Positions 3,462-64,000 of a stretch of DNA of 64,000 nt are shown in pieces. The DNA lies in assembly GCA_964035545.1 (NCBI GenBank), contig CAXIUT010000064.1:6611-70610 (forward strand). Reading direction: 5' to 3'. The position numbers were made by a program, and so were the translations under genes. The notes beneath the pieces were generated by a model, which saw nothing but the letters and a program-made list of their open reading frames with translations, did no database searches and was not told where the DNA came from. Within the stretch, counting starts at the first letter, position 1. Every line of letters starts with the position of its first letter. The stretch is from Bugula neritina. Its lineage: Eukaryota; Animalia; Bryozoa.

Positions 3462-4043
3462 TTAAAATCACCATCCAAATATTTGTCAAAAAATAGAGCT
3501 CTTTATTTTTTCTTCTAATTTCCTCTTATCTTTCTCAAATTCAGTTGGGAAAAGATAAATACTTAAACATACTGAATATATATATGTTATAAGAAACATA
3601 AACAATATTACTAATAATAGTAAAAACAGATTCATAAGTCAAAATAACATTCGACTTAATAGTGGATAGCCAATAAAGATTTCTCCTGTTTCTATTTTTC
3701 TAACAATTTTTCTTCGTATATCTCTTAAACTTCAATCATTATTTCAATCATCCACTAATTCTAAAATAAAATTTTTCAACATACCACCCAATATATGTTT
3801 ATGTCTCTTTAGTTTATTTATGTCTTTTTTAAGAACATCTTTTAATAAACTAAGATCCCTTTCTGTTTCATTTACATATTTTAAAAGTTTATCTTCTAAC
3901 TTATCATCTCATCTTTTATGTTTTTTTTTTATAATAGATTGACGGGAAAGTCTTTGGGGTTTATTTATAAAGCTATTAAAATGAGTTTTCACTCATCTAT
4001 AAAATCTAAATACTATTTTAATAAATTTTGTTATTAATTTCAT
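3462..4043 (-). CDS. Unrecognised 193-aa ORF, GYP family member B
   Basis: Absent from the track because of TGA codons; MKLITKFIKIVFRFYRWVK...KYVNETERDL...RHKHILGGML...EIFIGYPLLSRMLFW followed by a hydrophobic helix. Confidence 0.8.
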
Positions 4044-4212: not shown

Positions 4213-4737
4213 TTCATATTAAAAAAATTAAAATTAAAAAGTAAATTATATTTGTATGTGTATGTTATATTTACTATATTTATTAAAAATCATAATATAA
4301 TTATTTTTTATATAATATAGTTAAAAATTAATACGCTTATGAACACTGTTATTAAAACTATATAGAATTACGTCTATTTATGTCAATACATATATATATA
4401 TATATATGTATTAATAGTGTAATTAATAAACTAGTTATAGTTTTATATAAAGTTCTTATTAATCTATTTATTACTTTAAAATAATATTTTTTTAATTTTT
4501 ACTAAATTATTTTAGCATATAATGTCTAAGTATAGTTATGAAAACGAAATTTTTTGTGTCAATGTTATTAAACTTATTTAAAAAATATAGTATAATTATT
4601 AATAGTAGTAAAAAATCTAACGTTAAATGATTAAAGGTGTATTAATATTTTTATTTAAAACTAATTTTCAAAAAAAGGATTTTATTTTTTTTTTATATAT
4701 ATTTTCTGTTTTATAGCAGATACTATACAATTTTCTA

Positions 4738-5229
4738 TTAAAAAAACTTATCATAAAAGATTGATAATAGTCACAGAATGTTTCTAGTAATTTTTGCAAA
4801 AACTCATGGTGCATAAAACAATCATCATAATATTAACATTATTATCAATATTCTCGTTAATAACTGTATAAATTTCGCAAATCAATATAATATCTGACTT
4901 AATATAGGATAACCGGGAAATACTTCATAATTCTCTATTTTTTTAAAGATTTTTTCCCACGTATCTATTCAGTTTCATCTACTATATAAATTGCATTTTA
5001 TTTCTCAAATAAACTTCCGCCACATACTCCCCATAATAGACTTATGTTTATCTATTTCAGTTATATACGCTAAGAGTTTTTCCTCTAATATGTCCTCCTC
5101 TGTTTTGTCCTTTTTTTTAAGTACACGGACAGAACTTCCAATAAAATTATTATCAGGTTTATTAAATAAAGATTTTACTCATCTATAAAACCTAAATACT
5201 AGTTTAATTAAATTTTTTATTATAGCCAC
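4738..5229 (-). CDS. GYP family member C, copy 1 (163 aa)
   Basis: GTG start after TAA; MAIIKNLIKLVFRFYRWVK...KHKSIMGSMW...EVFPGYPILSQILYW...; TAA at 4738. Confidence 0.8.
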
Positions 5230-5285
5230 TTAACAAATTATAAATATATATTAAAATTCTATAAACTTTTATATAAATCATATTT

Positions 5286-5450
5286 TTATACATGTATATG
5301 TATATATATTAAAATTTTACATATTATTAATAATATAATTATTGTAAATACACAGGGAAAGTTATTTAAATTTATTATTTTAAGAAATATAAAGCTATTG
5401 ATTAATTTATAACTGTTAATTTTTAATATATTAAATTTTTTTACTATCAG
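5286..5450 (-). CDS. Small partner ORF, array copy 1 (54 aa, CTG start; may be degenerate)
   Basis: Gap-free homologue of 8985-9194, truncated at a TA-rich tract. Confidence 0.45.
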   Translation of the reverse strand: MIVKKFNILKINSYKLINSFIFLKIINLNNFPCVFTIIILLIICKILIYIHIHV

Positions 5451-5633
5451 TTAATATTAAAAAAAAAAACTAAAATTCAAAAGTAAGTTGTAGTTATATA
5501 TATATATATATAACACCTTTATTGTATTTATTAAAAATCATAATATAATTATTTTTTATATAATATAGTTAAAAATTAATACGCTTATGAACACTGTTAT
5601 TAAAACTATATAGAATTACGTCTATTTATGTCA

Positions 5634-5669
<36 letters not shown>

Positions 5670-5995
5670 TAATAGTGTAATTAATAAACTAGTTATAGTT
5701 TTATATAAAGTTCTTATTAATCTATTTATTACTTTAAAATAATATTTTTTTAATTTTTACTAAATTATTTTAGCATATAATGTCTAAATATAGTTATGAA
5801 AACAAAACTTTTTGTGTCAATGTTATTAAACTTATTTAAAAAATATAGTATAATTATTAATAGTAGTAAAAAATCTAACGTTAAATGATTAAAAGTGTAT
5901 TAATATTTTTATTTAAAACTAATTTTCAAAAAAAAAGAATTTTATTTTTTTTATATATATTTTCTGTTTTATAGCAGATACTATACAATTTTCTA

Positions 5996-6487
5996 TTAAA
6001 AAAACTTATCATAAAAGATTGATAATAGTCACAGAATGTTTCTAGTAATTTTTGCAAAAACTCATGGTGCATAAAACAATCATCATAATATTAACATTAT
6101 TATCAATATTCTCGTTAATAACTGTATAAATTTCGCAAATCAATATAATATCTGACTTAATATAGGATAACCGGGAAATACTTCATAATTCTCTATTTTT
6201 TTAAAGATTTTTTCCCACGTATCTATTCAGTTTCATCTACTATATAAATTGCATTTTATTTCTCAAATAAACTTCCGCCACATACTCCCCATAATAGACT
6301 TATGTTTGTCCATTTCAGTTATATACGCTAAGAGTTTTTCCTCTAATATGTCCTCCTCTGTTTTGTCCTTTTTTTTAAGTACACGGACAGAACTTCCAAT
6401 AAAATTATTATCAGGTTTATTAAATAAAGATTTTACTCATCTATAAAACCTAAATACTAGTTTAATTAAATTCTTTATTATAGCCAC
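5996..6487 (-). CDS. GYP family member C, copy 2 (163 aa)
   Basis: Same 492-nt open frame as copy 1. Confidence 0.8.
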
Positions 6488-6543
6488 TTAACAAATTATA
6501 AATATATATTAAAATTCTATAAACTTTTATATAAATCATATTT

Positions 6544-6708
6544 TTATACATGTATATGTATATATATTAAAATTTTGCATATTATTAATAATATAATTAT
6601 TGTAAATACACAGGGAAAGTTGTTTAAATTTATTATTTTAAGAAATATAAAGCTATTGATTAATTTATAATTGTTAATTTTTAATATATTAAATTTTTTT
6701 ACTATCAG
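6544..6708 (-). CDS. Small partner ORF, array copy 2
   Basis: Same 165-nt frame as 5286-5450. Confidence 0.45.
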   Translation of the reverse strand: MIVKKFNILKINNYKLINSFIFLKIINLNNFPCVFTIIILLIICKILIYIHIHV

Positions 6709-7248
6709 TTAATATTAAAAAAAAAAACTAAAATTCAAAAGTAAGTTGTAGTTATATATATATATATAACACCTTTATTGTATTTATTAAAAATCATAAT
6801 ATAATTATTTTTTATATAATATAGTTAAAAATTAATACGCTTATGAACACTGTTATTAAAACTATATAGAATTACGTCTATTTATGTCAATACATATATA
6901 TATATATATGTATATATATATATTAATAGTATAATTAATAAACTAGTTATAGTTTTATATAAAGTTCTTATTAATCTATTTATTACTTTAAAATAATATT
7001 TTTTTAATTTTTACTAAATTATTTTAGCATATAATGTCTAAATATAGTTATGAAAACAAAACTTTTTGTGTCAATGTTATTAAACTTATTTAAAAAATAT
7101 AGTATAATTATTAATAGTAGTAAAAAATCTAACGTTAAATGATTAAAAGTGTATTAATATTTTTATTTAAAACTAATTTTCAAAAAAAAGGATTTTATTT
7201 TTTATATATATATTTTCTGTTTTATAGCAGATACTATACAATTTTATA

Positions 7249-7740
7249 TTAAAAAAACTTATCATAAAAGATTGATAATAGTCACAGAATGTTTCTAGTA
7301 ATTTTTGCAAAAACTCATGGTGCATAAAACAATCATCATAATATTAACATTATTATCAATATTCTCGTTAATAACTGTATAAATTTCGCAAATCAATATA
7401 ATATCTGACTTAATATGGGATAACCGGGAAATACTTCATAATTCTCTATTTTTTTAAAGATTTTTTCCCACGTATCTATTCAGTTTCATCTACTATATAA
7501 ATTGCATTTTATTTCTCAAATAAACTTCCGCCACATACTCCCCATAATAGACTTATGTTTGTCCATTTCAGTTATATACGCTAAGAGTTTTTCCTCTAAT
7601 ATGTCCTCCTCTGTTTTGTCCTTTTTTTTAAGTACACGGACAGAACTTCCAATAAAATTATTATCAGGTTTATTAAATAAAGATTTTACTCATCTATAAA
7701 ACCTAAATACTAGTTTAATTAAATTCTTTATTATAGCCAC
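7249..7740 (-). CDS. GYP family member C, copy 3 (163 aa)
   Basis: Same 492-nt open frame; synonymous CCT>CCC in the PGYP motif. Confidence 0.8.
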
Positions 7741-7796
7741 TTAACAAATTATAAATATATATTAAAATTCTATAAACTTTTATATAAATCATATTT

Positions 7797-7961
7797 TTAT
7801 ACATGTATATGTATATATATTAAAATTTTGCATATTATTAATAATATAATTATTGTAAATACATAGGGAAAGTTGTCTAAATTTATTATTTTAAGAAATA
7901 TAAAGCTATTGATTAATTTATAATTGTTAATTTTTAATATATTAAATTTTTTTACTATCAG
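7797..7961 (-). CDS. Small partner ORF, array copy 3
   Basis: Same 165-nt frame; LDNFPY variant is closer to the 8985-9194 copy. Confidence 0.45.
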   Translation of the reverse strand: MIVKKFNILKINNYKLINSFIFLKIINLDNFPYVFTIIILLIICKILIYIHIHV

Positions 7962-8492
7962 TTAATATTAAAAAAAAAAACTAAAATTCAAAAGTAAGTT
8001 GTAGTTATATATATATATATATAACATCTTTACTGTATTTATTAAAAATCATAATATAATTATTTTTTATATAATATAGTTAAAAATTAATACGCTTATG
8101 AACACTGTTATTAAAACTATATAAAATTACGTCTATTTATGTCAATACATATATATATATATATATATTAATAGTGTAATTAATAAACTAGTTATAGTTT
8201 TTTATAAAGTTCTTATTAGTCTATTTATTACTTTAAAATAATATTTTTTTAATTTTTACTAAATTATTTTAGCATATAATGTCTAAATATAGTTATGAAA
8301 ACAAAATTTTTTGTGTCAATGTTATTAAACTTATTTAAAAAATATAGTATAATTATTAATAGTAGTAAAAAATCTAATGTTAAATGATTAAAAGTGTATT
8401 AATATTTTTATTTAAAACTAATTTTCAAAAAAGGGATTTTATTTTTTTTATATATATTTTCTGTTTTATAACAGATACTATACAATTTTCTA

Positions 8493-8984
8493 TTAAAAAA
8501 ACTTATCATAAAAGATTGATAATAGTCACAGAATGTTTCTAGTAATTTTTGCAAAAACTCATGGTGCATAAAACAATCATCATAATATTAACATTATTAT
8601 CAATATTCTCGTTAATAACTGTATAAATTTCGCAAATCAATATAATATCTGACTTAATATAGGATAACCGGGAAATACTTCATAATTCTCTATTTTTTTA
8701 AAGATTTTTTCCCACGTATCTATTCAGTTTCATCTACTATATAAATTGCATTTTATTTCTCAAATAAACTTCCGCCACATACTCCCCATAATAGACTTAT
8801 GTTTATCCATTTCAGTTATATACGCTAAGAGTTTTTCCTCTAATATGTCCTCCTCTGTTTTGTCCTTTTTTTTAAGTACACGGACAGAACTTCCAATAAA
8901 ATTATTATCAGGTTTATTAAATAAAGATTTTACTCATCTATAAAACCTAAATACTAGTTTAATTAAATTTTTTATTATATTCAA
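8493..8984 (-). CDS. GYP family member C, copy 4 (163 aa, TTG start)
   Basis: Same 492-nt frame; TTG start abuts the TAA stop of the upstream small ORF. Confidence 0.8.
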
Positions 8985-9194
8985 TTAAAAACATACGAAG
9001 AAAAATCAAAATTGTGCATATATTATCATAAAACATATCTTTGCTATATACATTAAAATTTTATATATTATTAATAATATAATTATTGCAAATATATAGG
9101 GAAAGGCGTCTAGGTTTGTTACTTTAGGGGATATAACAGTATCGATTAATTTACGAATGTAAATTTTTAATACATTAAATTTTTCTCTTATCAC
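8985..9194 (-). CDS. Small 69-aa membrane protein, full-length partner ORF
   Basis: GTG after TAA; reads through TGA 9006 to TAA 8985; hydrophobic C-terminal half. Confidence 0.65.
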
Positions 9195-9270
9195 TTAATA
9201 TAAAAAAAAACTAAAATTAAAAAGTAAATTATAGCTGTATACAGTTTAATATGTATATATATATATAGAC

Positions 9271-10212: not shown

Positions 10213-11058
10213 TTACTTACTTGCAAGAAAAACATTAATAATTCAATCAATATCAATATAAACATAATAAGGCTCTACACCATATATATGTGGATATAAC
10301 GCTTCTGGATAAAAAGCTATGGCCTTTATAAATTTAAAAACTAATATATTCTTTATTTCTACAAGTGTAAATTGACATTTATATCAAACATAGAAAAATA
10401 TACCAATATCTTCAAGAATACGCATTATTACCACTGCTATTAATCCCAACAATACTGACACAAATACATAGTATAATTTGTTTAATAATGGATAACCAGG
10501 AAACACTTTATTATCTTCTGTTTTTTTAATAAATATTTTTCACGTCTTCCGCAAACTACGATTACTTCGTAAATCACTTTTTGTTTCTTCTATATTTTTT
10601 TTAAGCATAATGATCAATATGTAATAATGTTCTTTTAATTTATTTATCTTATTATCAATACTATTTTTTATTTTGTTTATGTAGTCTATAAATCGGTTTT
10701 TTAATACGCTACTTTGTTGTTTTAACCTATATATCTCCTGCTTAAGACTAGTCTTTAATATATTTTTCAACTCGTTTAAATCTTTTTTTGTCTCATCTGT
10801 ATATTTTATATAACTATCTTTAAGTATACTACAATGTTTTTTTAACTTATTTATCTTTTTCTTAAAAATATTCTTCAGTTTACTAAAGCCTTCTTTTATC
10901 TTGTTTGTAGACTTTTTAAACTTGTTATTTATATTACTTTTAAAACTATTCTGTAATATACTATACTCTTTTCTAATTAAACTTAAAATTCGTATACAAT
11001 TTTGTTTTAACATATTATAATATGTTTTTAATTTATTTATTATTTTAAAAATATACAC
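10213..11058 (-). CDS. Unrecognised 281-aa ORF, GYP family member D (long repetitive coiled coil plus hydrophobic segment)
   Basis: Track ORF 10540..11058 continues through TGA to TAA 10213; INKLK(K/E/T) internal repeats; KVFPGYPLLNKL. Confidence 0.8.
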
Positions 11059-11085
11059 TTTAACCCTTTTTATGAATGGGATAGG

Positions 11086-11156
11086 TAGGAGAAATAGGAT
11101 TTGAACCTATAATAACAGTCTTAAAACTGTAGTTTTTCCCTTTAAACTATTCTCCC
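11086..11156 (-). tRNA. trnW-related tRNA-like gene with an altered 6-nt anticodon loop (UUUAAG) and discriminator A; identity undetermined
   Basis: Full cloverleaf stems (GGGAGAA/TTCTCCT, ACAGT/ACTGT, ATAGG/CCTAT); highly similar to trnW at 37699. Confidence 0.7.
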
Positions 11157-25423: not shown

Positions 25424-25747
25424 TTATCATTTAATAAAAATTTTAGTTTTAAATCTAATTGAATTTATACGATATAATAAGTTAAGCTTAAAAAAGGAAA
25501 TAATAAAAAAATACATTAATAATTTATTTTTAAAAAACCGTATTAAATTTATAGTATAATTTATAGATATATTATAATTATAATTATTATTAAAAGACAA
25601 TACTTTTCGTTTTCCTATATTAAAGTGTTTTGGTGATCTTAAAAAAATTAAAGTTTGTTTATTTTTTTTTTTTAAAAATTTTTTTGAAAAAAAAATTCCT
25701 CTAATATAAAAGTTAAAAATTATAGCTTTATAGTTTAATTTATACAA
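25424..25747 (-). CDS. rps10: Ribosomal protein uS10m (ymf59)
   Basis: LRSPKHFNIGK motif; follows rpl16. Confidence 0.75.
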
Positions 25748-26186
25748 TTTTTACTAATTTTTTTTTTTTATAAGTATTCAAGTAAAAATTAACATTTAAT
25801 TTCATTTTAATATATTTTATAATATTTCTTATTAACTGAAAATAATAATTTTTTAATAGAACTATAGGCTTATTACATTTTACTATAGATGCAACTCTTA
25901 CATAAGAGCCAACACCTGATCCCATTCTAGAATTTTTTGATTTCATAGTTAATAAAAAATTAGGTCTAACCATTAATCAATATTTTTTAGTTAAATATGT
26001 AATATCTTTTTTAAAATACTTTTTTCTAAATAATTTTTTTAGTACTCTAAAATATACTAATTCAAATCTTATTTGATTAATCGTATATACTCCATAATTA
26101 AATTTTCATTTTTTATATATTTTAGTTTTATAGAATTTACGTCTTTTAAATATATGATTTTTTTTTATTAAGTAGTTTAAATTCAA
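25740..26186 (-). CDS. rpl16: Ribosomal protein uL16m
   Basis: PNFLLTMKSKNSRMGSGVG; TTG start inferred. Confidence 0.92.
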
Positions 26187-27203: not shown

Positions 27204-28316
27204 TTAAACATACATATTTATTAAATTTTTACTAAAGAATATTTTATTAAAATTAAGCATTATAAAATGATTAAATTTTTTATTAAAATAATTTTTTACA
27301 TTATTAAGTATAAATATATTATTAGCATAATTATATTTTAAGAAATTATAATTAAATTTTAAAAAGTTATAATTATAACTTAAAAAATAATAATTAAATT
27401 TTATAAAAAATTGAAGTTTACAGATAATATAAAAAATAATAACTACAAATATTATTATATGTGTAAAGAGAAAATTTATTAAATTTCAATTCAACATTAT
27501 AAACAAAAAAAAAAATATAATAATAAATAAAGATTTTATAAATACATATAAATAAACATTATTAATAAAATTAAATATAATAGCGAATACATATATATAC
27601 AAATATATATTAATATTACTGAATTTAATATTAAAATTTTTGTTTATACTATAACTTAAAATAAATAACATAGTTAATAATATTAAAAATAATTTAACTA
27701 CATTTATATCTAAAAGTTGTGAATTGAAAAAGTTATGTTTCGTATAAATATAACTATATCTTATTAATAGTAGTAAGTAGATTAGTAGACTAATATTTCA
27801 TAATTTATATAAATATAAATAATTATTTTTATGAATATTACATATATATACGTATGATAAAAATATAATAACATATTCTATAGAATCATTAGATCAATAC
27901 ACACCTCAATTAAAAACATATAAAGCTCATAAACTACCTAGTATAAATGAAATAACTGTAATACTTAAAAGAAAATTAAAACTTAATTTATTTATACTAT
28001 TATAATACTTAAGTATTAAGGTATTTATATAAAAAATTATAGATAAGTAAAATAAATAAGGATGTAATTTGAAAAAACCACAAAAAAATGAATTAATAAA
28101 AAAAAAAAAAACTAATTTATATTTAAATAAAAAAATAAAAATAAATAAATTATTATAAAAGTAGTATATAATATAAAAAAAAAAAATTACGATACTATAA
28201 TTAATGAAAATATCATTTAAACTTATTAAAAATTGTAAAAAAAATGTTAATTTTTTAAATAGTAATATATAATTAAATTTTATAAAATTAATAATATTAA
28301 AAATCAAATTATACAA
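27204..28316 (-). CDS. yejR: Heme lyase CcmF-like protein
   Basis: LHPYLFY and LGSLWALYVFNWGVYWSNDSIE (CcmF Trp-rich motif). Confidence 0.9.
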
Positions 28317-28788
28317 TTTTATTGGTTTTAAACAAATTTCTAAGTACTCTTCTTTTTATATTTTTTTTTTTTTTTTTAATATAATTTCAGCTATTAGTAC
28401 TTATAAAATAATGAAACTCAGGTTTTAATAGATAGAAAAATTTTTTTATTAATAAGTAATTTTTAAAATTAAAATTTTTACAATAAAATATGAAAACAGA
28501 ATTTATTTTTTTTTTTAACTTTTTGTTTAGTATGTTTATTATAGAACTAAAATTTTTTATAGATTTTTTAAAATATTTTAATTTTTTAATTTTTTTTCCT
28601 AATAACTGTCCTGAACTTAAAATATAAAATCTATTTTTATAAAAAAATTTAAAATATAATAGTTTTTTATGCATAAAAACAGATAAATAAAACAGTTTAT
28701 ATTTACTATAATTTATTGATGAAAAATTTGTATTATAATAAATATTTATTATTTTTTTAAAATTTATTTGCTCTTTTTTTATATTCAT
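28309..28788 (-). CDS. ymf61: Ymf61 / uS11m
   Basis: Basic; ILSSGQL resembles the S11 motif; directly upstream of yejR as in Tetrahymena. Confidence 0.6.
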
Positions 28789-29031
28789 TTATAAATTTAA
28801 TAGTAAAAAACTTAAAGCTACTTCTAAACCTCCCAATATTATAACTATAAAACTAAAACCAAAAATTCAATTTAAATTAAAAATTAGAGATGTGAAAATA
28901 TAAGAATAAAATAACAATATTAAAATAAATTCAGAATTTAAAATTAAAGTTAAAAAGTTTTTTAAAAATAAGTTAAAAGTTATTAGTAAAATAAATATTA
29001 TTGTGAAATAGAGCTTTAATCAAAATGTCAT
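28789..29031 (-). CDS. nad4L: NADH dehydrogenase subunit 4L (ymf58)
   Basis: 80-aa hydrophobic ORF with LILNSEF and GGLEVALS. Confidence 0.85.
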
Positions 29032-29038
29032 AGTTACT

Positions 29039-29176
29039 TTAATTACTTAATAAAAAAAAATTTTTTTTCTTTAAATAATTAACTCAATAGCTATTATATC
29101 AAATTTTCTTTTTACTTATTTTTTTCTTTTTATTCAGTATTTTACTTTTAAACTTAAACCTTTTTGGAACTGCCAC
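29039..29176 (-). CDS. rpl32: Putative ribosomal protein bL32 (45 aa)
   Basis: MAVPKRFKFKSKILNKKKKISKKKIWYNSYWVNYLKKKNFFLLSN; GTG start abuts the nad9 stop; MAVPK(R/K) is the bL32 N-terminal signature. Confidence 0.6.
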
Positions 29177-29648
29177 TTATACTTTTATATCGTTAATAAT
29201 AGTATTATATTGATTATATACTAATTGATTATTATAATTATAATTTAATAATAGTTTTCTACTATCATTTAAATTTATAAAATTTATTTTATTAAATTCT
29301 TTTAATTCCCTTTCTAATCAAGAATTTCCTTGATAAATACTTGATAAAGAATTTAAATATTTAAATATATCTATATCTACTAATATTTTAAAATCTAAAA
29401 AGAAACTTTGTAACGCTAAATAATATTTTTTTATGTTACAGTTATTTATAATAACTGCATCTATACTAGAAATTAATAAATTATTAATATTTTTTTTATT
29501 TAATAAAAAAAAAAAAAAAAAAAACTTTATTAGTTAAAGTTATTTTATAAATATTAGTAATTTTAGAATATTTAAAATTAATATTATTATTAATAATGTA
29601 ACAATCTAATCATCAGAGTTTATTATTTAAAAATTTTTTTTTATTCAA
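29177..29648 (-). CDS. nad9: NADH dehydrogenase subunit 9 (one frameshift in a 20-nt homopolymer as read)
   Basis: SLSSIYQGNSWLERELKEF and DSRKLLLNY; the N-terminal part (TTG 29648) is in a different frame across the A20 run at 29505-29524. Confidence 0.88.
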
Positions 29649-31216
29649 TTAACAAAATAAAAAACTAAAGTTAACAATAATATTAAAAAACTTAAAAAAT
29701 CTAATATATATTTTTCTTTTTTCTGTATATCTGTAAAATCAAAATTATCATCTAATTTTTCAGGTACACCATATAATATAGTAAATAAGAATTTACAAAA
29801 AAATATAACACTTAAAAAATTAATAAAAAATATAATAACAATACACAAAAAGGAGTGTAATTCTAAAGCTAATGTAATAAGATTTCATTCTATAAAAAAT
29901 TTTATAGTAATAGGGAAACCTGAAAATAATAATAATAAAAATCAAATATATTTTTGTAAATCTGGAAAAAATATACTTACCCCTCTTACCATATTAACTG
30001 CTCTAGTATTAAATCTACGCTGTAATATATCGATAATATAAAACATTAGGGAAGACATTATTCCGTGTAATATCACAAAAAGTATACATACATTTGTTAG
30101 AAATAGTTGTTTAAATACTAAAAATAAAAGCATAAAACTCATTTCCTGTATAGTTGCTCAAGCTATTAATTTTTTTATATCAGTTTGCATTGCTAACCCC
30201 AGTGTACTAATTACTAAACTAAAAATAATTCAAATTATTACATAAATAAATAAATCATTATATTTAAATAAGCCTAAAATTATATATAAACAATAAAATG
30301 CAGATTTTACTAAAAAACCGCTTAAAAACATAGAAAATGCAGTTGGAGCTTCAACATGAACTTTTAAAAGTCAGTAATGAAATGGTGCTAGTGGTATTTT
30401 AGTGCCAAAACCAACTATAATATTAATAAATAATATTATATTTTCATATTTAGAAAACTTCACTTCATTTAAATATATATAATTTAAAGTGTTATATTTA
30501 AAGTATATATATCCTAAACTAGATAAAACTAATAATGAACCGAATAAAGTTCAGTAAAATAAAATTGATACAGATTTATCATTTTTTTTTGAGTATCCTA
30601 ATGTATATGCATAATAAACAGTTGGTAAAAAAATAAAATCAAAACTAATAAACATTATTAGTAAATTATTGGTGCTTACCATTACTGTAACAAAAGTTAT
30701 AAAAAAAAAAAATATACTTATATTACTAATACGTTCAAAAAGATTTTTAGTACTTATAACATCTAAACAAATTAAACCAGTAAATAACATTAGCATTAAA
30801 ATTGCGTCACTAAATGAAGTAGAAAAAATTGCAAAATGCTCCATGTATCCTAGATTACTATTAGACAAATAAAATGAAATTCTAACGTAATGAAAGTAAT
30901 GACCTAATGCTTGTTCAACTTTTAATGCTAAATAAAATTTTATTATTATTAAAAAGGTTATAATAAATATAAAAATCATGTTAAAATATCATAAAACTTT
31001 TAAAATTTGTTTGTTATTATTAAAAAAAATATTAATAATATAATTCAGAACGCCTAAAGTTAAAAATGTGATTAATAGTACATTATATGTAGCTATTGAA
31101 TATTTTATATAAACAGTATATTCTGGAACCTTTTCGTAAGATAAGTTTTTTCCAAATATGTTAACAAAAGATTTAATAAAAATAAAAAAGTCATCATATA
31201 TTTTTTTTAAATTCAC
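29627..31216 (-). CDS. nad4: NADH dehydrogenase subunit 4
   Basis: Four track ORFs in one frame; KIPLAPFHYWLLKVHVEAPT and DIKKLIAWATIQEM. Confidence 0.95.
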
Positions 31217-31224
31217 TTAACAAT

Positions 31225-31476
31225 TTATTTACTTAGTAACCTTATAGAATTGGGGAAAAAAAAACAAAAACAAAAAATTAAATAAAATCATCAATTATAG
31301 GTTAATAGTAATACAATATTATAAAATACACTATAAACTAAATATATTACAATTATATTAATATAAATTGAAAAATAAAAAGTTACTCTAACATTTTGTC
31401 TATTTCTTGAATATCTACTTTTATTAAAAATTCTAACTTTTCGTACAAAATTCATTAAAATATTTATTACATCCAT
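31225..31476 (-). CDS. ymf70: Ymf70
   Basis: RIFNKSRYSRNRQ motif; upstream of nad4. Confidence 0.85.
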
Positions 31477-31718
31477 TTAACTTTAAAATAAAATCACTTT
31501 TTATAGAAAATATCTTTTAAATTAATAGCTCTAGAAGCTTTAGAAAAATAAAATTGTAAGAAGTCTTTATTGCTCAGTAAAAAAAAAATACTTTTTTTCT
31601 TTTTTACATAAAACGCTTTAATTATTTTATATATAATATAACTATTTAAGTTATAATTTTTTTTTTTTTTATATATAAATACATTGGAAAATAAAATATA
31701 TTTGCTTATTAATAACAA
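31467..31718 (-). CDS. Hypothetical 83-aa basic protein (possibly a uS2m/Ymf73-like fragment)
   Basis: Open frame through TGA 31494 to TAA 31467; SIFFLLSNK...KKW spacing loosely resembles S2. Confidence 0.4.
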
Positions 31719-31957: not shown

Positions 31958-32212
31958 CTATATTAATGTTAAAATAAATAATTGGTTTATAATATTTAAA
32001 ATAATAAAAATTAAAATAAAATTATTATAAAAACTATAATTAAATTTAAATAATTTTATTTTCATTTTTTTTATTAAATGTAAATAAATATGTATACAAT
32101 TAATTTGCTTAATTGAAAAGTATTGATTATTTTTTAAAAAAAATAAATTTAAAAAAAATTTATATGTTGGTCTATTTAATAAATTATCGTAAAAATTTAA
32201 AAAAAATTTCAT
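31958..32212 (-). CDS. Hypothetical 84-aa protein
   Basis: ATG preceded by TAA, 5 nt after the rpl14 stop; hydrophobic C-terminus. Confidence 0.5.
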   Translation of the reverse strand: MKFFLNFYDNLLNRPTYKFFLNLFFLKNNQYFSIKQINCIHIYLHLIKKMKIKLFKFNYSFYNNFILIFIILNIINQLFILTLI

Positions 32213-52930: not shown

Positions 52931-53639
52931 AAAAATTGAAGTATAAATTCGTATAAAATAATATTAATTTGGTCTTATTTTTAATAATTAAATATTAAAT
53001 TTTATATTAATATATATGGGTATATGTATAAGTTTTACAATTGTATAAGTGTATAAAGTATATATTAAATTTTTTTTAAGTATATTATTAAGATATGTTG
53101 ATTGTAAGAGTATTAGATATATTAAATATAGAAAAATTAAAAATTTGATAATTGTCGTAATTTATTAATTTATATGGGTTATATGTTTTTACGTAGGTAT
53201 AAGTCTGTTAGTATGTATATACATATTTATATTAGGCATTATAATGGTATATGTGTTTAGTATATATATAAAAGTGTATTTTTATAAGATTGGTTATGTA
53301 ATTATATCGATGCATATTTGATAAACTAATTGTATTTAGAAAAGGATAAAAAGCGTAATATATGTATATATATATATATAATTGGTTAATTGATGTGGTT
53401 ATAAGTAATTTATTTAGTAGTAAAGTGATTGATTGATAATTATAGATATAAGTATGGGTATATATTTACGTACACAGATAAATTTTTTTATGAATAAATA
53501 TATTTGAAATAATGGTGATATGGCTATTCTTAATTGTAATTTTTTCATATTTTATAATTAAAGTTGAAGTTATGGTATTAATATAAATATATTTATTTGA
53601 GCGTTAACTATACTAATTTTAAATATTTTTTTTTAATTA

Positions 53640-56600
53640 TTATTATAAATTTTTTTATATAAAATTTATTTAAATACTTTATTTATCAAATTTTAAAGAT
53701 TTTTTATAATAAAATAAAGCTGTAAATTTCTTACACAAAACTTACTTAATTACCTTATTTATCAAATTTTAAATATTTTTTATAATAAATTAAAGTTATA
53801 AATTTCTTACATAAAATCTACTTGAATAACTTATCTATCAAATTTTAAATATTTTTATAATAAATTAAAGTTATAAATTTCTTACATAAAACCTACTTGA
53901 ATAACTTATCTATCAAATTTTAAATACCTTTTTATAATAAATTAAAGTTATAAATTTCTTACATAAAACCTATTTGAATAACTTATCTATCAAATTTTAA
54001 ATATTTTTTATAATAAATTAAAGCTGTAAATTTCTTACATAAAACCTACTTGAATAACTTATCTATCAAATTTTAAATATTTTTATAATAAATTAAAGTT
54101 ATAAATTTCTTACATAAAACCTACTTAAATAACTTATCTATCAAATTTTAAATATTTTTTATAATAAATTAAAGCTGTAAATTTCTTACATAAAACCTAC
54201 TTGAATAACTTATCTATCAAATTTTAAATATTTTTATAATAAATTAAAGTTATAAATTTCTTATATAAAACCTACTTAATTACCTTATCTATCAAATTTT
54301 AAATACCTTTTTATAATAAATTAAAGTTATAAATTTCTTATATAAAACCTACTTAATTACCTTATCTATCAAATTTTAAATACCTTTTTATAATAAATTA
54401 AAGTTATAAATTTCTTACATAAAACCTACTTAAATAACTTATCTATCAAATTTTAAATACCTTTTTATAATAAATTAAAGCTGTAAATTTCTTACATAAA
54501 ACCTACTTGAATAATTTATTTATATAAGATTTGTATAAGAAATTTATAACTTTAATTTATTATATAAAACCTACTTAATTACCTTATCTATCAAATTTTA
54601 AATACCTTTTTATAATAAATTAAAGCTGTAAATTTCTTACATAAAACCTACTTGAATAATTTATTTATATAAGATTTGTATAAGAAATTTATAACTTTAA
54701 TTTATTATAAAAAGGTATTTAAAATTTGATAGATAAGTTATTTAAGTAGGTTTTATGTAAGAAATTTATAACTTTAATTTATTATAAAAAATATTTAAAA
54801 TTTGATAGATAAGGTAATTAAGTAGGTTTTATATAAGAAATTTATAACTTTAATTTATTATAAAAAGGTATTTAAAATTTGATAGATAAGTTATTTAAGT
54901 AAGTTTTATGTAAGAAATTTATAACTTTAATTTATTATAAAAAGGTATTTAAAATTTGATAGATAAGGTAATTAAGTAGGTTTTATGTAAGAAATTTATA
55001 ACTTTAATTTATTATAAAAATATTTAAAATTTGATAGATAAGTTATTTAAGTAAATTTCTTATATAAAACCTACTTAATTACCTTATCTATCAAATTTTA
55101 AATATTTTTATAATAAATTAAAGTTATAAATTTCTTATATAAAACCTACTTGAATAACTTATCTATCAAATTTTAAATACCTTTTTATAATAAATTAAAG
55201 TTATAAATTTCTTATATAAAACCTACTTAATTACCTTATCTATCAAATTTTAAATACCTTTTTATAATAAATTAAAGTTATAAATTTCTTACATAAAACC
55301 TATTTGAATAACTTATCTATCAAATTTTAAATACCTTTTTATAATAAATTAAAGCTGTAAATTTCTTACATAAAACCTACTTAATTACCTTATCTATCAA
55401 ATTTTAAATACCTTTTTATAATAAATTAAAGTTATAAATTTCTTATATAAAACCTACTTAATTACCTTATCTATCAAATTTTAAATATTTTTTATAATAA
55501 ATTAAAGTTATAAATTTCTTACATAAAACCTATTTGAATAACTTATCTATCAAATTTTAATACCTTTTTATAATAAATTAAAGCTGTAAATTTCTTACAT
55601 AAAACCTACTTAATTACCTTATCTATCAAATTTTAAATACCTTTTTATAATAAATTAAAGTTATAAATTTCTTACATAAAACCTACTTAAATAACTTATC
55701 TATCAAATTTTAAATACCTTTTTATAATAAATTAAAGTTATAAATTTCTTATACAAATCTTATATAAATAAATTATTCAAGTAGGTTTTATGTAAGAAAT
55801 TTATAACTTTAATTTATTATAAAAAATATTTAAAATTTGATAGATAAGGTAATTAAGTAGGTTTTATATAAGAAATTTATAACTTTAATTTATTATAAAA
55901 AGGTATTTAAAATTTGATAGATAAGTTATTTAAGTAAGTTTTATGTAAGAAATTTATAACTTTAATTTATTATAAAAAGTTATTATTGTTATTTAAAATT
56001 TGATAGATAAGGTAATTAAGTAGGTTTTATGTAAGAAATTTATAACTTTAATTTATTATAAAAATATTTAAAATTTGATAGATAAGTTATTTAAGTAAAT
56101 TTCTTATATAAAACCTACTTAATTACCTTATCTATCAAATTTTAAATATTTTTATAATAAATTAAAGTTATAAATTTCTTATATAAAACCTACTTAAATA
56201 ACTTATCTATCAAATTTTAAATATTTTTTATAATAAATTAAAGCTGTAAATTTCTTACATAAAACCTACTTAATTACCTTATCTATCAAATTTTAAATAC
56301 CTTTTTATAATAAATTAAAGTTATAAATTTCTTATATAAAACCTACTTAATTACCTTATCTATCAAATTTTAAATATTTTTTATAATAAATTAAAGCTGT
56401 AAATTTCTTACATAAAACCTACTTGAATAATTTATTTATATAAGATTTGTATAAGAAATTTATAACTTTAATTTATTATAAAAAGGTATTTAAAATTTGA
56501 TAGATAAGTTATTTAAGTAGGTTTTATGTAAGAAATTTATAACTTTAATTTATTATAAAAAATATTTAAAATTTGATAGATAAGGTAATTAAGTAGGTTT

Positions 56601-59600
56601 TATATAAGAAATTTATAACTTTAATTTATTATAAAAAGGTATTTAAAATTTGATAGATAAGGTAATTAAGTAGGTTTTATGTAAGAAATTTACAGCTTTA
56701 ATTTATTATAAAAAATATTTAAAATTTGATAGATAAGGTAATTAAGTAGGTTTTATATAAGAAATTTATAACTTTAATTTATTATAAAAAGGTATTTAAA
56801 ATTTGATAGATAAGTTATTTAAGTAAGTTTTATGTAAGAAATTTATAACTTTAATTTATTATAAAAAGGTATTTAAAATTTGATAGATAAGGTAATTAAG
56901 TAGGTTTTATGTAAGAAATTTATAACTTTAATTTATTATAAAAATATTTAAAATTTGATAGATAAGTTATTTAAGTAAATTTCTTATATAAAACCTACTT
57001 AATTACCTTATCTATCAAATTTTAAATATTTTTATAATAAATTAAAGTTATAAATTTCTTATATAAAACCTACTTAAATAACTTATCTATCAAATTTTAA
57101 ATATTTTTTATAATAAATTAAAGCTGTAAATTTCTTACATAAAACCTACTTAATTACCTTATCTATCAAATTTTAAATACCTTTTTATAATAAATTAAAG
57201 TTATAAATTTCTTATATAAAACCTACTTAATTACCTTATCTATCAAATTTTAAATATTTTTTATAATAAATTAAAGCTGTAAATTTCTTACATAAAACCT
57301 ACTTAATTACCTTATCTATCAAATTTTAAATACCTTTTTATAATAAATTAAAGTTATAAATTTCTTATATAAAACCTACTTAATTACCTTATCTATCAAA
57401 TTTTAAATACCTTTTTATAATAAATTAAAGTTATAAATTTCTTATATAAAACCTACTTAATTACCTTATCTATCAAATTTTAAATATTTTTTATAATAAA
57501 TTAAAGTTATAAATTTCTTACATAAAACCTACTTAAATAACTTATCTATCAAATTTTAAATACCTTTTTATAATAAATTAAAGTTATAAATTTCTTATAC
57601 AAATCTTATATAAATAAATTATTCAAGTAGGTTTTATGTAAGAAATTTACAGCTTTAATTTATTATAAAAAATATTTAAAATTTGATAGATAAGGTAATT
57701 AAGTAGGTTTTATATAAGAAATTTATAACTTTAATTTATTATAAAAAGGTATTTAAAATTTGATAGATAAGGTAATTAAGTAGGTTTTATGTAAGAAATT
57801 TACAGCTTTAATTTATTATAAAAAATATTTAAAATTTGATAGATAAGTTATTTAAGTAGGTTTTATATAAGAAATTTATAACTTTAATTTATTATAAAAA
57901 TATTTAAAATTTGATAGATAAGGTAATTAAGTAGGTTTTATATAAGAAATTTACTTAAATAACTTATCTATCAAATTTTAAATATTTTTATAATAAATTA
58001 AAGTTATAAATTTCTTACATAAAACCTACTTAATTACCTTATCTATCAAATTTTAAATACCTTTTTATAATAAATTAAAGTTATAAATTTCTTACATAAA
58101 ACTTACTTAAATAACTTATCTATCAAATTTTAAATACCTTTTTATAATAAATTAAAGTTATAAATTTCTTATATAAAACCTACTTAATTACCTTATCTAT
58201 CAAATTTTAAATATTTTTTATAATAAATTAAAGTTATAAATTTCTTATACAAATCTTATATAAATAAATTATTCAAGTAGGTTTTATGTAAGAAATTTAC
58301 AACTTTAATTTATTATAAAAAATATTTAAAATTTGATAGATAAGGTAATTAAGTAGGTTTTATATAAGAAATTTATAACTTTAATTTATTATAAAAAGGT
58401 ATTTAAAATTTGATAGATAAGTTATTTAAGTAAGTTTTATGTAAGAAATTTATAACTTTAATTTATTATAAAAAGGTATTTAAAATTTGATAGATAAGGT
58501 AATTAAGTAGGTTTTATGTAAGAAATTTATAACTTTAATTTATTATAAAAATATTTAAAATTTGATAGATAAGTTATTTAAGTAAATTTCTTATATAAAA
58601 CCTACTTAATTACCTTATCTATCAAATTTTAAATATTTTTATAATAAATTAAAGTTATAAATTTCTTATATAAAACCTACTTAAATAACTTATCTATCAA
58701 ATTTTAAATATTTTTTATAATAAATTAAAGCTGTAAATTTCTTACATAAAACCTACTTAATTACCTTATCTATCAAATTTTAAATACCTTTTTATAATAA
58801 ATTAAAGTTATAAATTTCTTATATAAAACCTACTTAATTACCTTATCTATCAAATTTTAAATATTTTTTATAATAAATTAAAGCTGTAAATTTCTTACAT
58901 AAAACCTACTTGAATAATTTATTTATATAAGATTTGTATAAGAAATTTATAACTTTAATTTATTATAAAAAGGTATTTAAAATTTGATAGATAAGTTATT
59001 TAAGTAGGTTTTATGTAAGAAATTTATAACTTTAATTTATTATAAAAAATATTTAAAATTTGATAGATAAGGTAATTAAGTAGGTTTTATATAAGAAATT
59101 TATAACTTTAATTTATTATAAAAAGGTATTTAAAATTTGATAGATAAGGTAATTAAGTAGGTTTTATGTAAGAAATTTACAGCTTTAATTTATTATAAAA
59201 AATATTTAAAATTTGATAGATAAGGTAATTAAGTAGGTTTTATATAAGAAATTTATAACTTTAATTTATTATAAAAAGGTATTTAAAATTTGATAGATAA
59301 GTTATTTAAGTAGGTTTTATGTAAGAAATTTACAGCTTTAATTTATTATAAAAAATATTTAAAATTTGATAGATAAGGTAATTAAGTAGGTTTTATATAA
59401 GAAATTTATAACTTTAATTTATTATAAAAAGGTATTTAAAATTTGATAGATAAGGTAATTAAGTAGGTTTTATGTAAGAAATTTACAGCTTTAATTTATT
59501 ATAAAAAATATTTAAAATTTGATAGATAAGTTATTTAAGTAGGTTTTATATAAGAAATTTATAACTTTAATTTATTATAAAAATATTTAAAATTTGATAG

Positions 59601-62600
59601 ATAAGGTAATTAAGTAGGTTTTATATAAGAAATTTACTTAAATAACTTATCTATCAAATTTTAAATATTTTTATAATAAATTAAAGTTATAAATTTCTTA
59701 CATAAAACCTACTTAATTACCTTATCTATCAAATTTTAAATACCTTTTTATAATAAATTAAAGTTATAAATTTCTTACATAAAACTTACTTAAATAACTT
59801 ATCTATCAAATTTTAAATACCTTTTTATAATAAATTAAAGTTATAAATTTCTTATATAAAACCTACTTAATTACCTTATCTATCAAATTTTAAATATTTT
59901 TTATAATAAATTAAAGCTGTAAATTTCTTACATAAAACCTACTTAATTACCTTATCTATCAAATTTTAAATACCTTTTTATAATAAATTAAAGTTATAAA
60001 TTTCTTATATAAAACCTACTTAATTACCTTATCTATCAAATTTTAAATATTTTTTTATAATAAATTAAAGTTATAAATTTCTTACATAAAACCTACTTAA
60101 ATAACTTATCTATCAAATTTTAAATACCTTTTTATAATAAATTAAAGTTATAAATTTCTTATACAAATCTTATATAAATAAATTATTCAAGTAGGTTTTA
60201 TGTAAGAAATTTATAACTTTAATTTATTATAAAAAGGTATTTAAAATTTGATAGATAAGGTAATTAAGTAGGTTTTATGTAAGAAATTTATAACTTTAAT
60301 TTATTATAAAAATATTTAAAATTTGATAGATAAGTTATTTAAGTAAATTTCTTATATAAAACCTACTTAATTACCTTATCTATCAAATTTTAAATATTTT
60401 TATAATAAATTAAAGTTATAAATTTCTTATATAAAACCTACTTAAATAACTTATCTATCAAATTTAAATATTTTTTATAATAAATTAAAGCTGTAAATTT
60501 CTTACATAAAACCTACTTAATTACCTTATCTATCAAATTTTAAATACCTTTTTATAATAAATTAAAGTTATAAATTTCTTATATAAAACCTACTTAATTA
60601 CCTTATCTATCAAATTTTAAATATTTTTTATAATAAATTAAAGTTATAAATTTCTTACATAAAACCTACTTAAATAACTTATCTATCAAATTTTAAATAC
60701 CTTTTTATAATAAATTAAAGTTATAAATTTCTTATACAAATCTTATATAAATAAATTATTCAAGTAGGTTTTATGTAAGAAATTTACAGCTTTAATTTAT
60801 TATAAAAAATATTTAAAATTTGATAGATAAGGTAATTAAGTAGGTTTTATATAAGAAATTTATAACTTTAATTTATTATAAAAAGGTATTTAAAATTTGA
60901 TAGATAAGGTAATTAAGTAGGTTTTATGTAAGAAATTTACAGCTTTAATTTATTATAAAAAATATTTAAAATTTGATAGATAAGTTATTTAAGTAGGTTT
61001 TATATAAGAAATTTATAACTTTAATTTATTATAAAAATATTTAAAATTTGATAGATAAGGTAATTAAGTAGGTTTTATATAAGAAATTTACTTAAATAAC
61101 TTATCTATCAAATTTTAAATATTTTTATAATAAATTAAAGTTATAAATTTCTTACATAAAACCTACTTAATTACCTTATCTATCAAATTTTAAATACCTT
61201 TTTATAATAAATTAAAGCTGTAAATTTCTTACATAAAACCTACTTAATTACCTTATCTATCAAATTTTAAATACCTTTTTATAATAAATTAAAGTTATAA
61301 ATTTCTTATATAAAACCTACTTAATTACCTTATCTATCAAATTTTAAATATTTTTTATAATAAATTAAAGCTGTAAATTTCTTACATAAAACCTACTTGA
61401 ATAATTTATTTATATAAGATTTGTATAAGAAATTTATAACTTTAATTTATTATAAAAAGGTATTTAAAATTTGATAGATAAGTTATTTAAGTAGGTTTTA
61501 TGTAAGAAATTTATAACTTTAATTTATTATAAAAAATATTTAAAATTTGATAGATAAGGTAATTAAGTAGGTTTTATATAAGAAATTTATAACTTTAATT
61601 TATTATAAAAAGGTATTTAAAATTTGATAGATAAGGTAATTAAGTAGGTTTTATGTAAGAAATTTACAGCTTTAATTTATTATAAAAAATATTTAAAATT
61701 TGATAGATAAGTTATTTAAGTAGGTTTTATATAAGAAATTTATAACTTTAATTTATTATAAAAATATTTAAAATTTGATAGATAAGGTAATTAAGTAGGT
61801 TTTATATAAGAAATTTACTTAAATAACTTATCTATCAAATTTTAAATATTTTTATAATAAATTAAAGTTATAAATTTCTTACATAAAACCTACTTAATTA
61901 CCTTATCTATCAAATTTTAAATACCTTTTTATAATAAATTAAAGTTATAAATTTCTTACATAAAACCTACTTGAATAATTTATTTATATAAGATTTGTAT
62001 AAGAAATTTATAACTTTAATTTATTATAAAAAGGTATTTAAAATTTGATAGATAAGTTATTTAAGTAGGTTTTATGTAAGAAATTTATAACTTTAATTTA
62101 TTATAAAAAATATTTAAAATTTGATAGATAAGGTAATTAAGTAGGTTTTATATAAGAAATTTATAACTTTAATTTATTATAAAAAGGTATTTAAAATTTG
62201 ATAGATAAGGTAATTAAGTAGGTTTTATGTAAGAAATTTACAGCTTTAATTTATTATAAAAAATATTTAAAATTTGATAGATAAGGTAATTAAGTAGGTT
62301 TTATATAAGAAATTTATAACTTTAATTTATTATAAAAAGGTATTTAAAATTTGATAGATAAGTTATTTAAGTAAGTTTTATGTAAGAAATTTATAACTTT
62401 AATTTATTATAAAAAGGTATTTAAAATTTGATAGATAAGGTAATTAAGTAGGTTTTATGTAAGAAATTTATAACTTTAATTTATTATAAAAATATTTAAA
62501 ATTTGATAGATAAGTTATTTAAGTAAATTTCTTATATAAAACCTACTTAATTACCTTATCTATCAAATTTTAAATATTTTTATAATAAATTAAAGTTATA

Positions 62601-64000
62601 AATTTCTTATATAAAACCTACTTAAATAACTTATCTATCAAATTTTAAATATTTTTTATAATAAATTAAAGCTGTAAATTTCTTACATAAAACCTACTTA
62701 ATTACCTTATCTATCAAATTTTAAATACCTTTTTATAATAAATTAAAGTTATAAATTTCTTATATAAAACCTACTTAATTACCTTATCTATCAAATTTTA
62801 AATATTTTTTATAATAAATTAAAGCTGTAAATTTCTTACATAAAACCTACTTAAATAACTTATCTATCAAATTTTAAATACCTTTTTATAATAAATTAAA
62901 GTTATAAATTTCTTATATAAAACCTACTTAATTACCTTATCTATCAAATTTTAAATATTTTTTATAATAAATTAAAGCTGTAAATTTCTTACATAAAACC
63001 TACTTAATTACCTTATCTATCAAATTTTAAATACCTTTTTATAATAAATTAAAGTTATAAATTTCTTATATAAAACCTACTTAATTACCTTATCTATCAA
63101 ATTTTAAATATTTTTTATAATAAATTAAAGTTATAAATTTCTTACATAAAACCTACTTAAATAACTTATCTATCAAATTTTAAATACCTTTTTATAATAA
63201 ATTAAAGTTATAAATTTCTTATACAAATCTTATATAAATAAATTATTCAAGTAGGTTTTATGTAAGAAATTTACAGCTTTAATTTATTATAAAAAATATT
63301 TAAAATTTGATAGATAAGGTAATTAAGTAGGTTTTATATAAGAAATTTATAACTTTAATTTATTATAAAAAGGTATTTAAAATTTGATAGATAAGGTAAT
63401 TAAGTAGGTTTTATGTAAGAAATTTACAGCTTTAATTTATTATAAAAAATATTTAAAATTTGATAGATAAGTTATTTAAGTAGGTTTTATATAAGAAATT
63501 TATAACTTTAATTTATTATAAAAATATTTAAAATTTGATAGATAAGGTAATTAAGTAGGTTTTATATAAGAAATTTACTTAAATAACTTATCTATCAAAT
63601 TTTAAATATTTTTATAATAAATTAAAGTTATAAATTTCTTACATAAAACCTACTTAATTACCTTATCTATCAAATTTTAAATACCTTTTTATAATAAATT
63701 AAAGTTATAAATTTCTTACATAAAACTTACTTAAATAACTTATCTATCAAATTTTAAATACCTTTTTATAATAAATTAAAGTTATAAATTTCTTATATAA
63801 AACCTACTTAATTACCTTATCTATCAAATTTTAAATATTTTTTATAATAAATTAAAGTTGTAAATTTCTTACATAAAACCTACTTGAATAATTTATTTAT
63901 ATAAGATTTGTATAAGAAATTTATAACTTTAATTTATTATAAAAAATATTTAAAATTTGATAGATAAGGTAATTAAGTAGGTTTTATATAAGAAATTTAT
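53640..64000. repeat. Telomere-like array of 75-77-bp units in alternating inverted blocks
   Basis: Unit ttatctatcaaattttaaata(cc)tttttataataaattaaag(t/c)t(a/g)taaatttctta(c/t)ataaaacctactt(aattacc/aaataac/gaataac); degenerate at the left edge and runs off the window end. Confidence 0.95.

What the first reader, a model, noticed from the sequence alone, without database searches (positions are those of the whole stretch)
29039..29176. Hidden rpl32 (bL32)-like gene between nad9 and nad4L
Seen: a 45-aa frame below the track cutoff that fills the nad9-nad4L gap: MAVPKRFKFKSKILNKKKKISKKKIWYNSYW... Established: bL32 proteins begin MAVPK(R/K), and zinc-less plastid/cyanobacterial forms continue with a basic run then IW...YW-like residues. 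Mitochondrion-encoded rpl32 is known to me mainly from gene-rich mtDNAs such as jakobids and is not in the standard ciliate gene set. Inference: an overlooked ancestral mt gene retained in this ciliate lineage.
Basis: partly seen in the sequence, partly recalled or inferred. Interest (0 to 1): 0.72.

Follow-up and report, generated by a model that had tools for sequence, protein, structure and literature searches.

The report
Overlooked bL32-like ciliate mitochondrial gene
A tiny gene conserved between two respiratory genes in one group of ciliate mitochondrial genomes encodes a basic peptide that begins like ribosomal protein bL32 and is likely a much-eroded copy of it, a gene seldom kept in mitochondria.

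Summary
The 45-codon frame is real (29039-29176, minus strand, GTG start, code 4). It abuts the nad9 stop and ends 7 nt before a nad4L-like gene. It is a conserved gene: 25 of 25 related ciliate mitochondrial loci with nad9 matches like the window's carry it in the same slot. The start codon alternates among ATG, GTG and TTG, the block MA[VAI]PKRF is kept through synonymous changes, and dN/dS is 0.05-0.33. The bL32 assignment is likely but not proven. The family profile matches a bacterial bL32 profile (hhalign probability 79, against 0.6 for the rival uL16), and none of 5,602 other possible starts comes close at residues 2-6. But the whole signal lies in the first six residues. No member hits Pfam L32p, the Ser/Arg helix motif and zinc knuckle are absent, and the best structure-database match (chloroplast bL32c) has E 2.9. 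I found no report of rpl32 in ciliate mtDNA. Verdict: real overlooked gene (about 0.97), divergent zinc-less bL32 (about 0.7).

The parts
29039..29176 (-). Conserved small ORF, 45 aa, GTG start, likely divergent rpl32 (bL32-like)
   Evidence: frame; synteny, codon pattern, dN/dS; bL32 comparison
29156..29176 (-). Codons 1-7, the near-invariant N-terminal block MA[VAI]PKRF; it carries all of the bL32 signal
29039..29155 (-). Lys-rich, fast-evolving remainder; no CxxC pair; family consensus K-x-K...I-N-N-N-x-x-Y is only partly kept in the window
29177..29648 (-). nad9, upstream neighbour; its stop abuts the ORF start; reading frame shifts at a 20-nt A run (29505-29524), likely a sequence error
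28789..29031 (-). nad4L-like gene, downstream neighbour, 80 aa from the conserved ATG
   Evidence: no library hit
28309..28788 (-). Basic 159-aa ORF following nad4L in the same conserved gene block; unidentified here
   Evidence: no significant Pfam hit, no PDB hit
29627..31216 (-). nad4-type gene upstream of nad9, part of the conserved block

Best explanation
This is a conserved protein-coding gene of a ciliate mitochondrial genome that likely encodes a shortened, zinc-less, strongly diverged form of large-subunit ribosomal protein bL32 (rpl32). Shown: the frame, its fixed place between nad9 and a nad4L-like gene, selection on the protein, and an N-terminus matching bL32 at residues 2-6. Inferred: it would be translated from the same polycistronic message, likely coupled to the nad9 stop (gap 0-41 nt). 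After loss of the initiator Met, its Ala-Val-Pro-Lys-Arg end would thread into the large-subunit rRNA core as the bL32 N-terminus does (established ribosome knowledge, recalled). The Lys-rich remainder would lie on rRNA at the surface near the exit tunnel, much as chloroplast bL32c uses a basic helix where bacteria have the C-terminal domain. The buried end would explain why only it stays invariant.
For: Synteny: 25 of 25 close loci (L001-L025) carry it. Coding: start codon GTG/ATG/TTG in 4/6/9 of 19 sequences, Arg6 in four different codons, third positions vary in 5 of 6 codons, dN/dS 0.05-0.33 in six pairs. bL32 link: hhalign probability 78.8, P 1.7e-5, score 29.2, against mean 7.5 and maximum 12.8 for 60 column-shuffled bL32 profiles and score 13.7 for uL16. 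At residues 2-6 the family scores 17.7-21.2 against bL32; the best of 5,602 other possible starts scores 12.1. Chance of the signature at that position is 2.4e-6 from local residue frequencies. Of 177,635 PDB sequences, chloroplast bL32c is the only listed hit that aligns from residue 1 to residue 1, and with the larger profile it has the best single-stretch score among the alignments shown. Size 34-55 aa in 31 of 35 members, 27% Lys+Arg. Calibration: the nad4L-like neighbour scores only probability 1.1 against NuoK and misses Pfam, so library misses are expected in this lineage.
Against: No Pfam L32p or NCBIfam L32 hit in any member. Removing columns 1-6 abolishes the match (probability 0.06); removing only Met drops it to 14.9. 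The motif that suggested the idea is also what scores, so the test is partly circular. Positions 7-9 score negatively against bL32 and positions 8-9 fit uL16 better; the conserved Ser11, Arg16 and Arg17 of bL32 are not kept; over residues 7-20, 415 of 5,602 unrelated starts do as well. The PDB match is not significant (E 6.1 and 2.9). The family profile did not hit any rpl32 locus in 41 bacterial genomes at E<=10 (against places). No bL32 appeared among 22 hits in 1.84 billion proteins. The reverse bL32 profile gives family members only E 4-9, below some unrelated frames.
Confidence: 0.7

Rival explanations
1. A lineage-specific basic peptide, probably a ribosomal or other RNA-binding filler, unrelated to bL32; the five-residue match is convergence.
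For: No similarity beyond residue 6; invariant Phe7 has no counterpart in the bL32 sample. Ciliate mtDNAs hold many lineage-specific ORFs. A ciliate mitochondrial contig with the same gene order lacks it altogether.
Confidence: 0.16
2. A detached N-terminal arm of uL16, supplied in trans because ciliate rpl16 has lost the usual P-K-R-x-K-F/Y start.
For: P4, K5, R6, K8, F/Y9 and K10 fit the uL16 sample in register. The rpl16 genes in these loci lack that motif. Ciliates do split ribosomal proteins (uS3m).
Against: hhalign probability 0.6, P 0.1. Invariant Ala2 and Val/Ala/Ile3 do not fit uL16. rpl16 is full length at its N-terminus and begins alike in loci with the ORF and in L045 without it, so there is no complementary pattern.
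Confidence: 0.06
3. A non-ribosomal role: a small complex I assembly peptide, or a translated spacer that passes ribosomes from nad9 to nad4L.
For: It lies between two complex I genes with tight spacing. One database protein has it fused in frame to nad4L (P0098). Tail length and sequence are loose (34-100 aa).
Against: A mere spacer would not keep an invariant N-terminal peptide or show dN/dS 0.05-0.33 over the whole frame. The peptide is very basic, like ribosomal proteins. The single fusion may be a sequence error.
Confidence: 0.06
4. Not a gene: a chance frame or a conserved DNA/RNA signal.
For: Short frames are common in this AT-rich DNA (43 frames of 35 aa or more in 6 kb). No RNA evidence was obtained.
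Against: Synonymous variation, start-codon interchange, an open frame in every locus with stops in the other two frames, and dN/dS well under 1.
Confidence: 0.02

Closest known systems
Bacterial bL32 (rpmF, Pfam PF01783), alphaproteobacterial sample
   Same: N-terminal M-A-V-P-K-K/R, basic first 20 residues, small size.
   Different: No T-S-x-S-R-R-x-M-R-R helix motif, no CxxC zinc knuckle or other C-terminal domain, invariant Phe7, mostly 40-55 aa instead of about 60.
Chloroplast bL32c (PDB 4v61 chain B2 and three further entries)
   Same: Organelle protein whose aligned stretch holds no Cys pair; aligns from residue 1 over 34-43 residues with the same I-x5-Y spacing; reported to use an elongated basic helix on rRNA (PMC5694952, passage).
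   Different: Match not significant (E 2.9-6.1). The Trp residues of bL32c are not conserved in the family. The likeness is probably parallel erosion, not plastid origin (inference).
Mitochondrion-encoded rpl32 of Reclinomonas, heterolobosean BB2, telonemids and 'prometheids'
   Same: Same gene in the same compartment, if the assignment holds.
   Different: Those were annotated as rpl32; this one escapes the libraries. I could not fetch their sequences for a direct comparison.
Ymf-encoded mitoribosomal proteins of Tetrahymena (PMC7326499)
   Same: Ciliate mtDNA ORFs of unknown function that proved to be diverged ribosomal proteins (nine cases).
   Different: Those were shown by cryo-EM. No chain of that structure was listed in the family-profile searches.
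uL16 N-terminal arm
   Same: P-K-R-x-K-F/Y-K/R in register.
   Different: Profile match not significant; an intact rpl16 gene lies 3 kb away.

Membership tests
bL32 / rpl32 | N-terminal A-V/A-P-K-K/R directly after the initiator Met | tested here: met
   A2, P4, K5 in 35 of 35, R6 in 34 of 35, V3 in 26 of 35
bL32 / rpl32 | Score above the Pfam PF01783 or NCBIfam cut-off | tested here: not met
   No hit at E<=10; the nad4L-like neighbour also misses its family
bL32 / rpl32 | Ser/Arg helix motif at residues 9-19 (S11, R16, R17 in the bacterial sample) | tested here: not met
   Basic but not motif-like; mean score over residues 7-20 is -3.3, matched by 415 of 5,602 unrelated starts
bL32 / rpl32 | C-terminal CxxC...CxxC zinc knuckle (optional in the family; absent in several bacterial sequences) | tested here: not met
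   CxxC in 0 of 35
bL32 / rpl32 | Profile-profile similarity above null | tested here: inconclusive
   Probability 78.8 over 11 columns, above 60 of 60 shuffles, lost without columns 1-6
bL32 / rpl32 | Fold: extended N-terminus, helix, then strand or second helix | tested here: inconclusive
   Two AlphaFold2 models disagree, pTM 0.28 and 0.35; fold searches uninformative
bL32 / rpl32 | Occupies the bL32 site of the large subunit | not testable with these tools
   Needs mass spectrometry or cryo-EM
bL32 / rpl32 | No second, complete bL32m in the nuclear genome | not testable with these tools
   No genome is held for this window
uL16 N-terminal fragment | Profile match to the uL16 N-terminus | tested here: not met
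   Probability 0.6, P 0.1
uL16 N-terminal fragment | Complementary truncation of rpl16 where the ORF is present | tested here: not met
   rpl16 is full length and begins alike with and without the ORF

The most novel reading that the evidence does not exclude
This is the first mitochondrion-encoded rpl32 in an alveolate, so the gene stayed in the organelle until after ciliates diverged and moved to the nucleus several times independently. Boldest form, not excluded (about 0.1 on its own): bL32 is split between two genomes, with the rRNA-buried N-terminal half made in the mitochondrion and the C-terminal domain imported or lost, as reported for Tetrahymena uS3m.
Probability: 0.65. Interest if true: 0.62.

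Novelty: new variant of a known kind. Interest (0 to 1): 0.5.

Why it matters
rpl32 is described as rarely retained in mtDNA (PMC12432456 passage) and is missing from the ciliate gene lists I read. Toxoplasma has a bL32m with a ToxoDB gene id, and apicomplexan mtDNA encodes only three proteins (abstract), so that copy is nuclear. A mitochondrial copy in ciliates would add a gene to the ancestral alveolate mitochondrial set and require separate transfers to the nucleus. It would also mark the minimal indispensable part of bL32, about six residues. It shows too that 40-50-codon genes with GTG or TTG starts can drop out of protist mitogenome annotation. The effect is on annotation and organelle gene-loss maps, not a new mechanism.

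Tried and rejected
Single-sequence searches with the window ORF gave nothing useful: Pfam, NCBIfam, PDB (six chance rows, E>=0.7) and the 5.8-billion-protein set. Viral-contig scans with nad4 and nad9 found no relatives. No RNA holder was listed among public runs, so expression is untested, and only one set of four runs was laid. AlphaFold2 gave an extended-plus-helix model and an all-helix model. Foldseek found nothing and the wide structural search gave only Z<=2.7 helix matches; bL32 not being listed there is no evidence. I tried to see a Tetrahymena bL32m chain in four PDB searches. None was listed, but two lists were cut at 60 of 79 and 60 of 104 rows, so its presence and coding genome stay open. 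The protein table of PMC7326499 is an image, the supplement of PMC7947838 was too large, and bioRxiv supplements are closed. The split-uL16 idea was tested and rejected. The 'IW...YW' motif was rejected as family evidence. An rpl16 tree places L045, which lacks the ORF, among ORF-bearing loci, but on a long branch, so its place is unsure. Look-ups in earlier findings returned nothing. No language-model look-alike search or complex prediction was obtained.

Full report
Observation. The window is a ciliate-type mitochondrial sequence: 11-28% G+C per 2-kb bin, with long frames under table 4 all on the minus strand, including nad, cox, cob, atp9 and ribosomal genes (most names are from my reading of the translations, while nad9, nad4 and rpl16 have library support). 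I did not determine the ciliate class. The frame at 29039-29176 is open for 45 codons from a GTG. It starts at the base after the nad9 stop and ends 7 nt before the conserved ATG of an 80-residue membrane protein. That protein is nad4L by inference only. One public contig repeats 28845-29304 without a difference.

It is a conserved gene. A nad9 alignment (73 sequences: the window and 72 of 81 hits) retrieved 43 metagenome loci and 6 genome loci. L001-L025 all carry a frame starting with a start codon plus A[VAI]PKRF, 0-41 nt after the nad9 stop; 24 are complete (34-68 aa) and L009 runs off its contig. The other 18 metagenome loci have different genes after nad9 where the contig continues, and show no such motif in the stretch held. 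L044 and L045 share the window's gene order but lack the ORF; for L045 the whole 44,174-base contig was scanned. L046-L049, weak nad9 matches in prokaryote genome records, also lack the motif. For codon analysis I used the window and 18 of the 25 loci, dropping 7 whose protein was identical to a kept one. The start codon is GTG, ATG or TTG (4, 6, 9). Ala2, Pro4, Lys5, Arg6 and Phe7 are invariant, Arg6 uses four codons, and third positions vary in 5 of 6 codons against 2 and 1 for first and second positions. dN/dS is 0.05-0.33 in the six pairs of one alignable subgroup, against 0.05-0.17 for nad4L. A profile search of 1.84 billion representatives returned 22 proteins, all of this family. A second search returned 18 among 7,988 candidates scored, none with a Pfam domain or informative name (cluster look-ups for 16 family proteins gave only 'hypothetical' or no name).

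What it is. No library names it: no L32 hit for the window ORF, 17 aligned members, 22 relatives or 35 members. I therefore built a bL32 profile from 29 genome sequences, mostly from one alphaproteobacterial class sample, and a uL16 profile from 16, because the block also recalls the uL16 start. The family scores probability 78.8 against bL32 over 11 columns and 0.6 against uL16; 60 column-shuffled bL32 profiles reach at most 12.8 against the observed 29.2. At residues 2-6 all 25 complete family starts score 17.7-21.2 against bL32, and the best of 5,602 other possible starts scores 12.1. In the PDB, chloroplast bL32c is the one listed hit aligned from residue 1 to residue 1, at E 6.1 and then 2.9 over 43 residues. 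Against this: the match vanishes without columns 1-6 and falls to 14.9 without Met; residues 7-20 are no better than 415 of the 5,602 controls; positions 8-9 fit uL16 better; no member has CxxC; and the family profile found no rpl32 locus among 11 weak matches in 41 bacterial genomes (one of the 41, G045, is unpublished and enters only this tally and that). The reverse search with the bL32 profile ranked family members at E 4-9. As calibration, the nad4L-like neighbour misses Pfam in 10 of 10 sequences and scores probability 1.1 against NuoK, so erosion to this degree is normal here. Structure prediction did not help.

How it likely works. Shown: a selected, very basic peptide with a fixed N-terminus in a tightly packed gene block. 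Inferred: translation coupled to nad9, removal of Met, insertion of the Ala-Val-Pro-Lys-Arg end into large-subunit rRNA as in bL32 (recalled structural knowledge), and a loose basic tail on the rRNA surface. Chloroplast bL32c is a precedent for a basic helix in place of the bacterial C-terminal domain. It works like bL32 with probability about 0.7. Formal membership is not established, since the library score and helix motif were tested and not met. Rivals: unrelated lineage-specific peptide 0.16, detached uL16 arm 0.06 (no complementary truncation), complex I or spacer role 0.06, no gene 0.02.

Literature seen. PMC2779199: passages and tables (rpl32 value only in the Reclinomonas column as I read the table; ciliate list lacks it). 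PMC7326499: passages and supplement list; its protein table is an image. PMC7900873: passages. PMC10878089, PMC7961746: passages, no 'L32' in the text. PMC7947838: passages, supplement unreadable. PMC10809612, PMC12432456, PMC8998825, PMC11452305, PMC5694952: passages. PMC11742926: one supplementary row. PMC8660880: supplement search, no bL32. bioRxiv 10.64898/2026.10.06.756942: passages and section 16. bioRxiv 10.1101/2025.07.17.664916: passages; it reports no new known genes and six lineage-specific unknown ORFs in three litostome mitogenomes, and I cannot say whether this ORF is one of them. PMC10948144: start of abstract in a listing only. No report of rpl32 in ciliate mtDNA turned up in searches 9 (20 of 21 papers listed), 13, 85, 101, 102 and 115; the library lacks most subscription journals, and unseen supplements may bear on this. 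My recollection that Tetrahymena has a nucleus-encoded bL32m comes from no call.

Verdict. A real, overlooked gene, probably a zinc-less remnant of bL32: a new variant of a known kind. Interest 0.5.

Noticed in passing
window 29505-29524: nad9 is split into two frames at a run of 20 A; relatives are 155-158 aa in one frame, so this is likely a homopolymer error in the window.
   Followed up: partly
L045:9600-10450 (G002:C23): In this ciliate mitochondrial contig nad9 and the nad4L-like gene lie in one uninterrupted reading frame, and the small ORF is not found on the 44-kb contig; a true fusion or an overlap with internal start.
   Followed up: partly
L044 and L045: Ciliate-type mitochondrial contigs are binned inside two bacterial genome assemblies.
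   Followed up: no
P0098: One database protein has the small ORF fused in frame to nad4L (130 aa); real fusion or sequence error unknown.
   Followed up: no
window 4249-9210: Four tandem repeats of about 1.25 kb, each with a near-identical 163-codon ORF; related ORFs at 202-801, 3462-4043 and 10213-11100 appear to share a short motif.
   Followed up: no
window 53500-64000: A long array of roughly 77-bp units with higher-order periodicity, over 10 kb.
   Followed up: no
window 25740-26186 and related loci: All rpl16 genes seen in these ciliate loci lack the P-K-R-x-K-F/Y start typical of the bacterial sample, while keeping full length.
   Followed up: partly
window 28309-28788, 31467-31718, 31958-32212: Further unidentified ORFs in the same block; those at 28309 and 31958 are conserved in related loci and could be other eroded genes.
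   Followed up: no
window 11084-11156: A tRNA-like gene with an unresolved anticodon.
   Followed up: no
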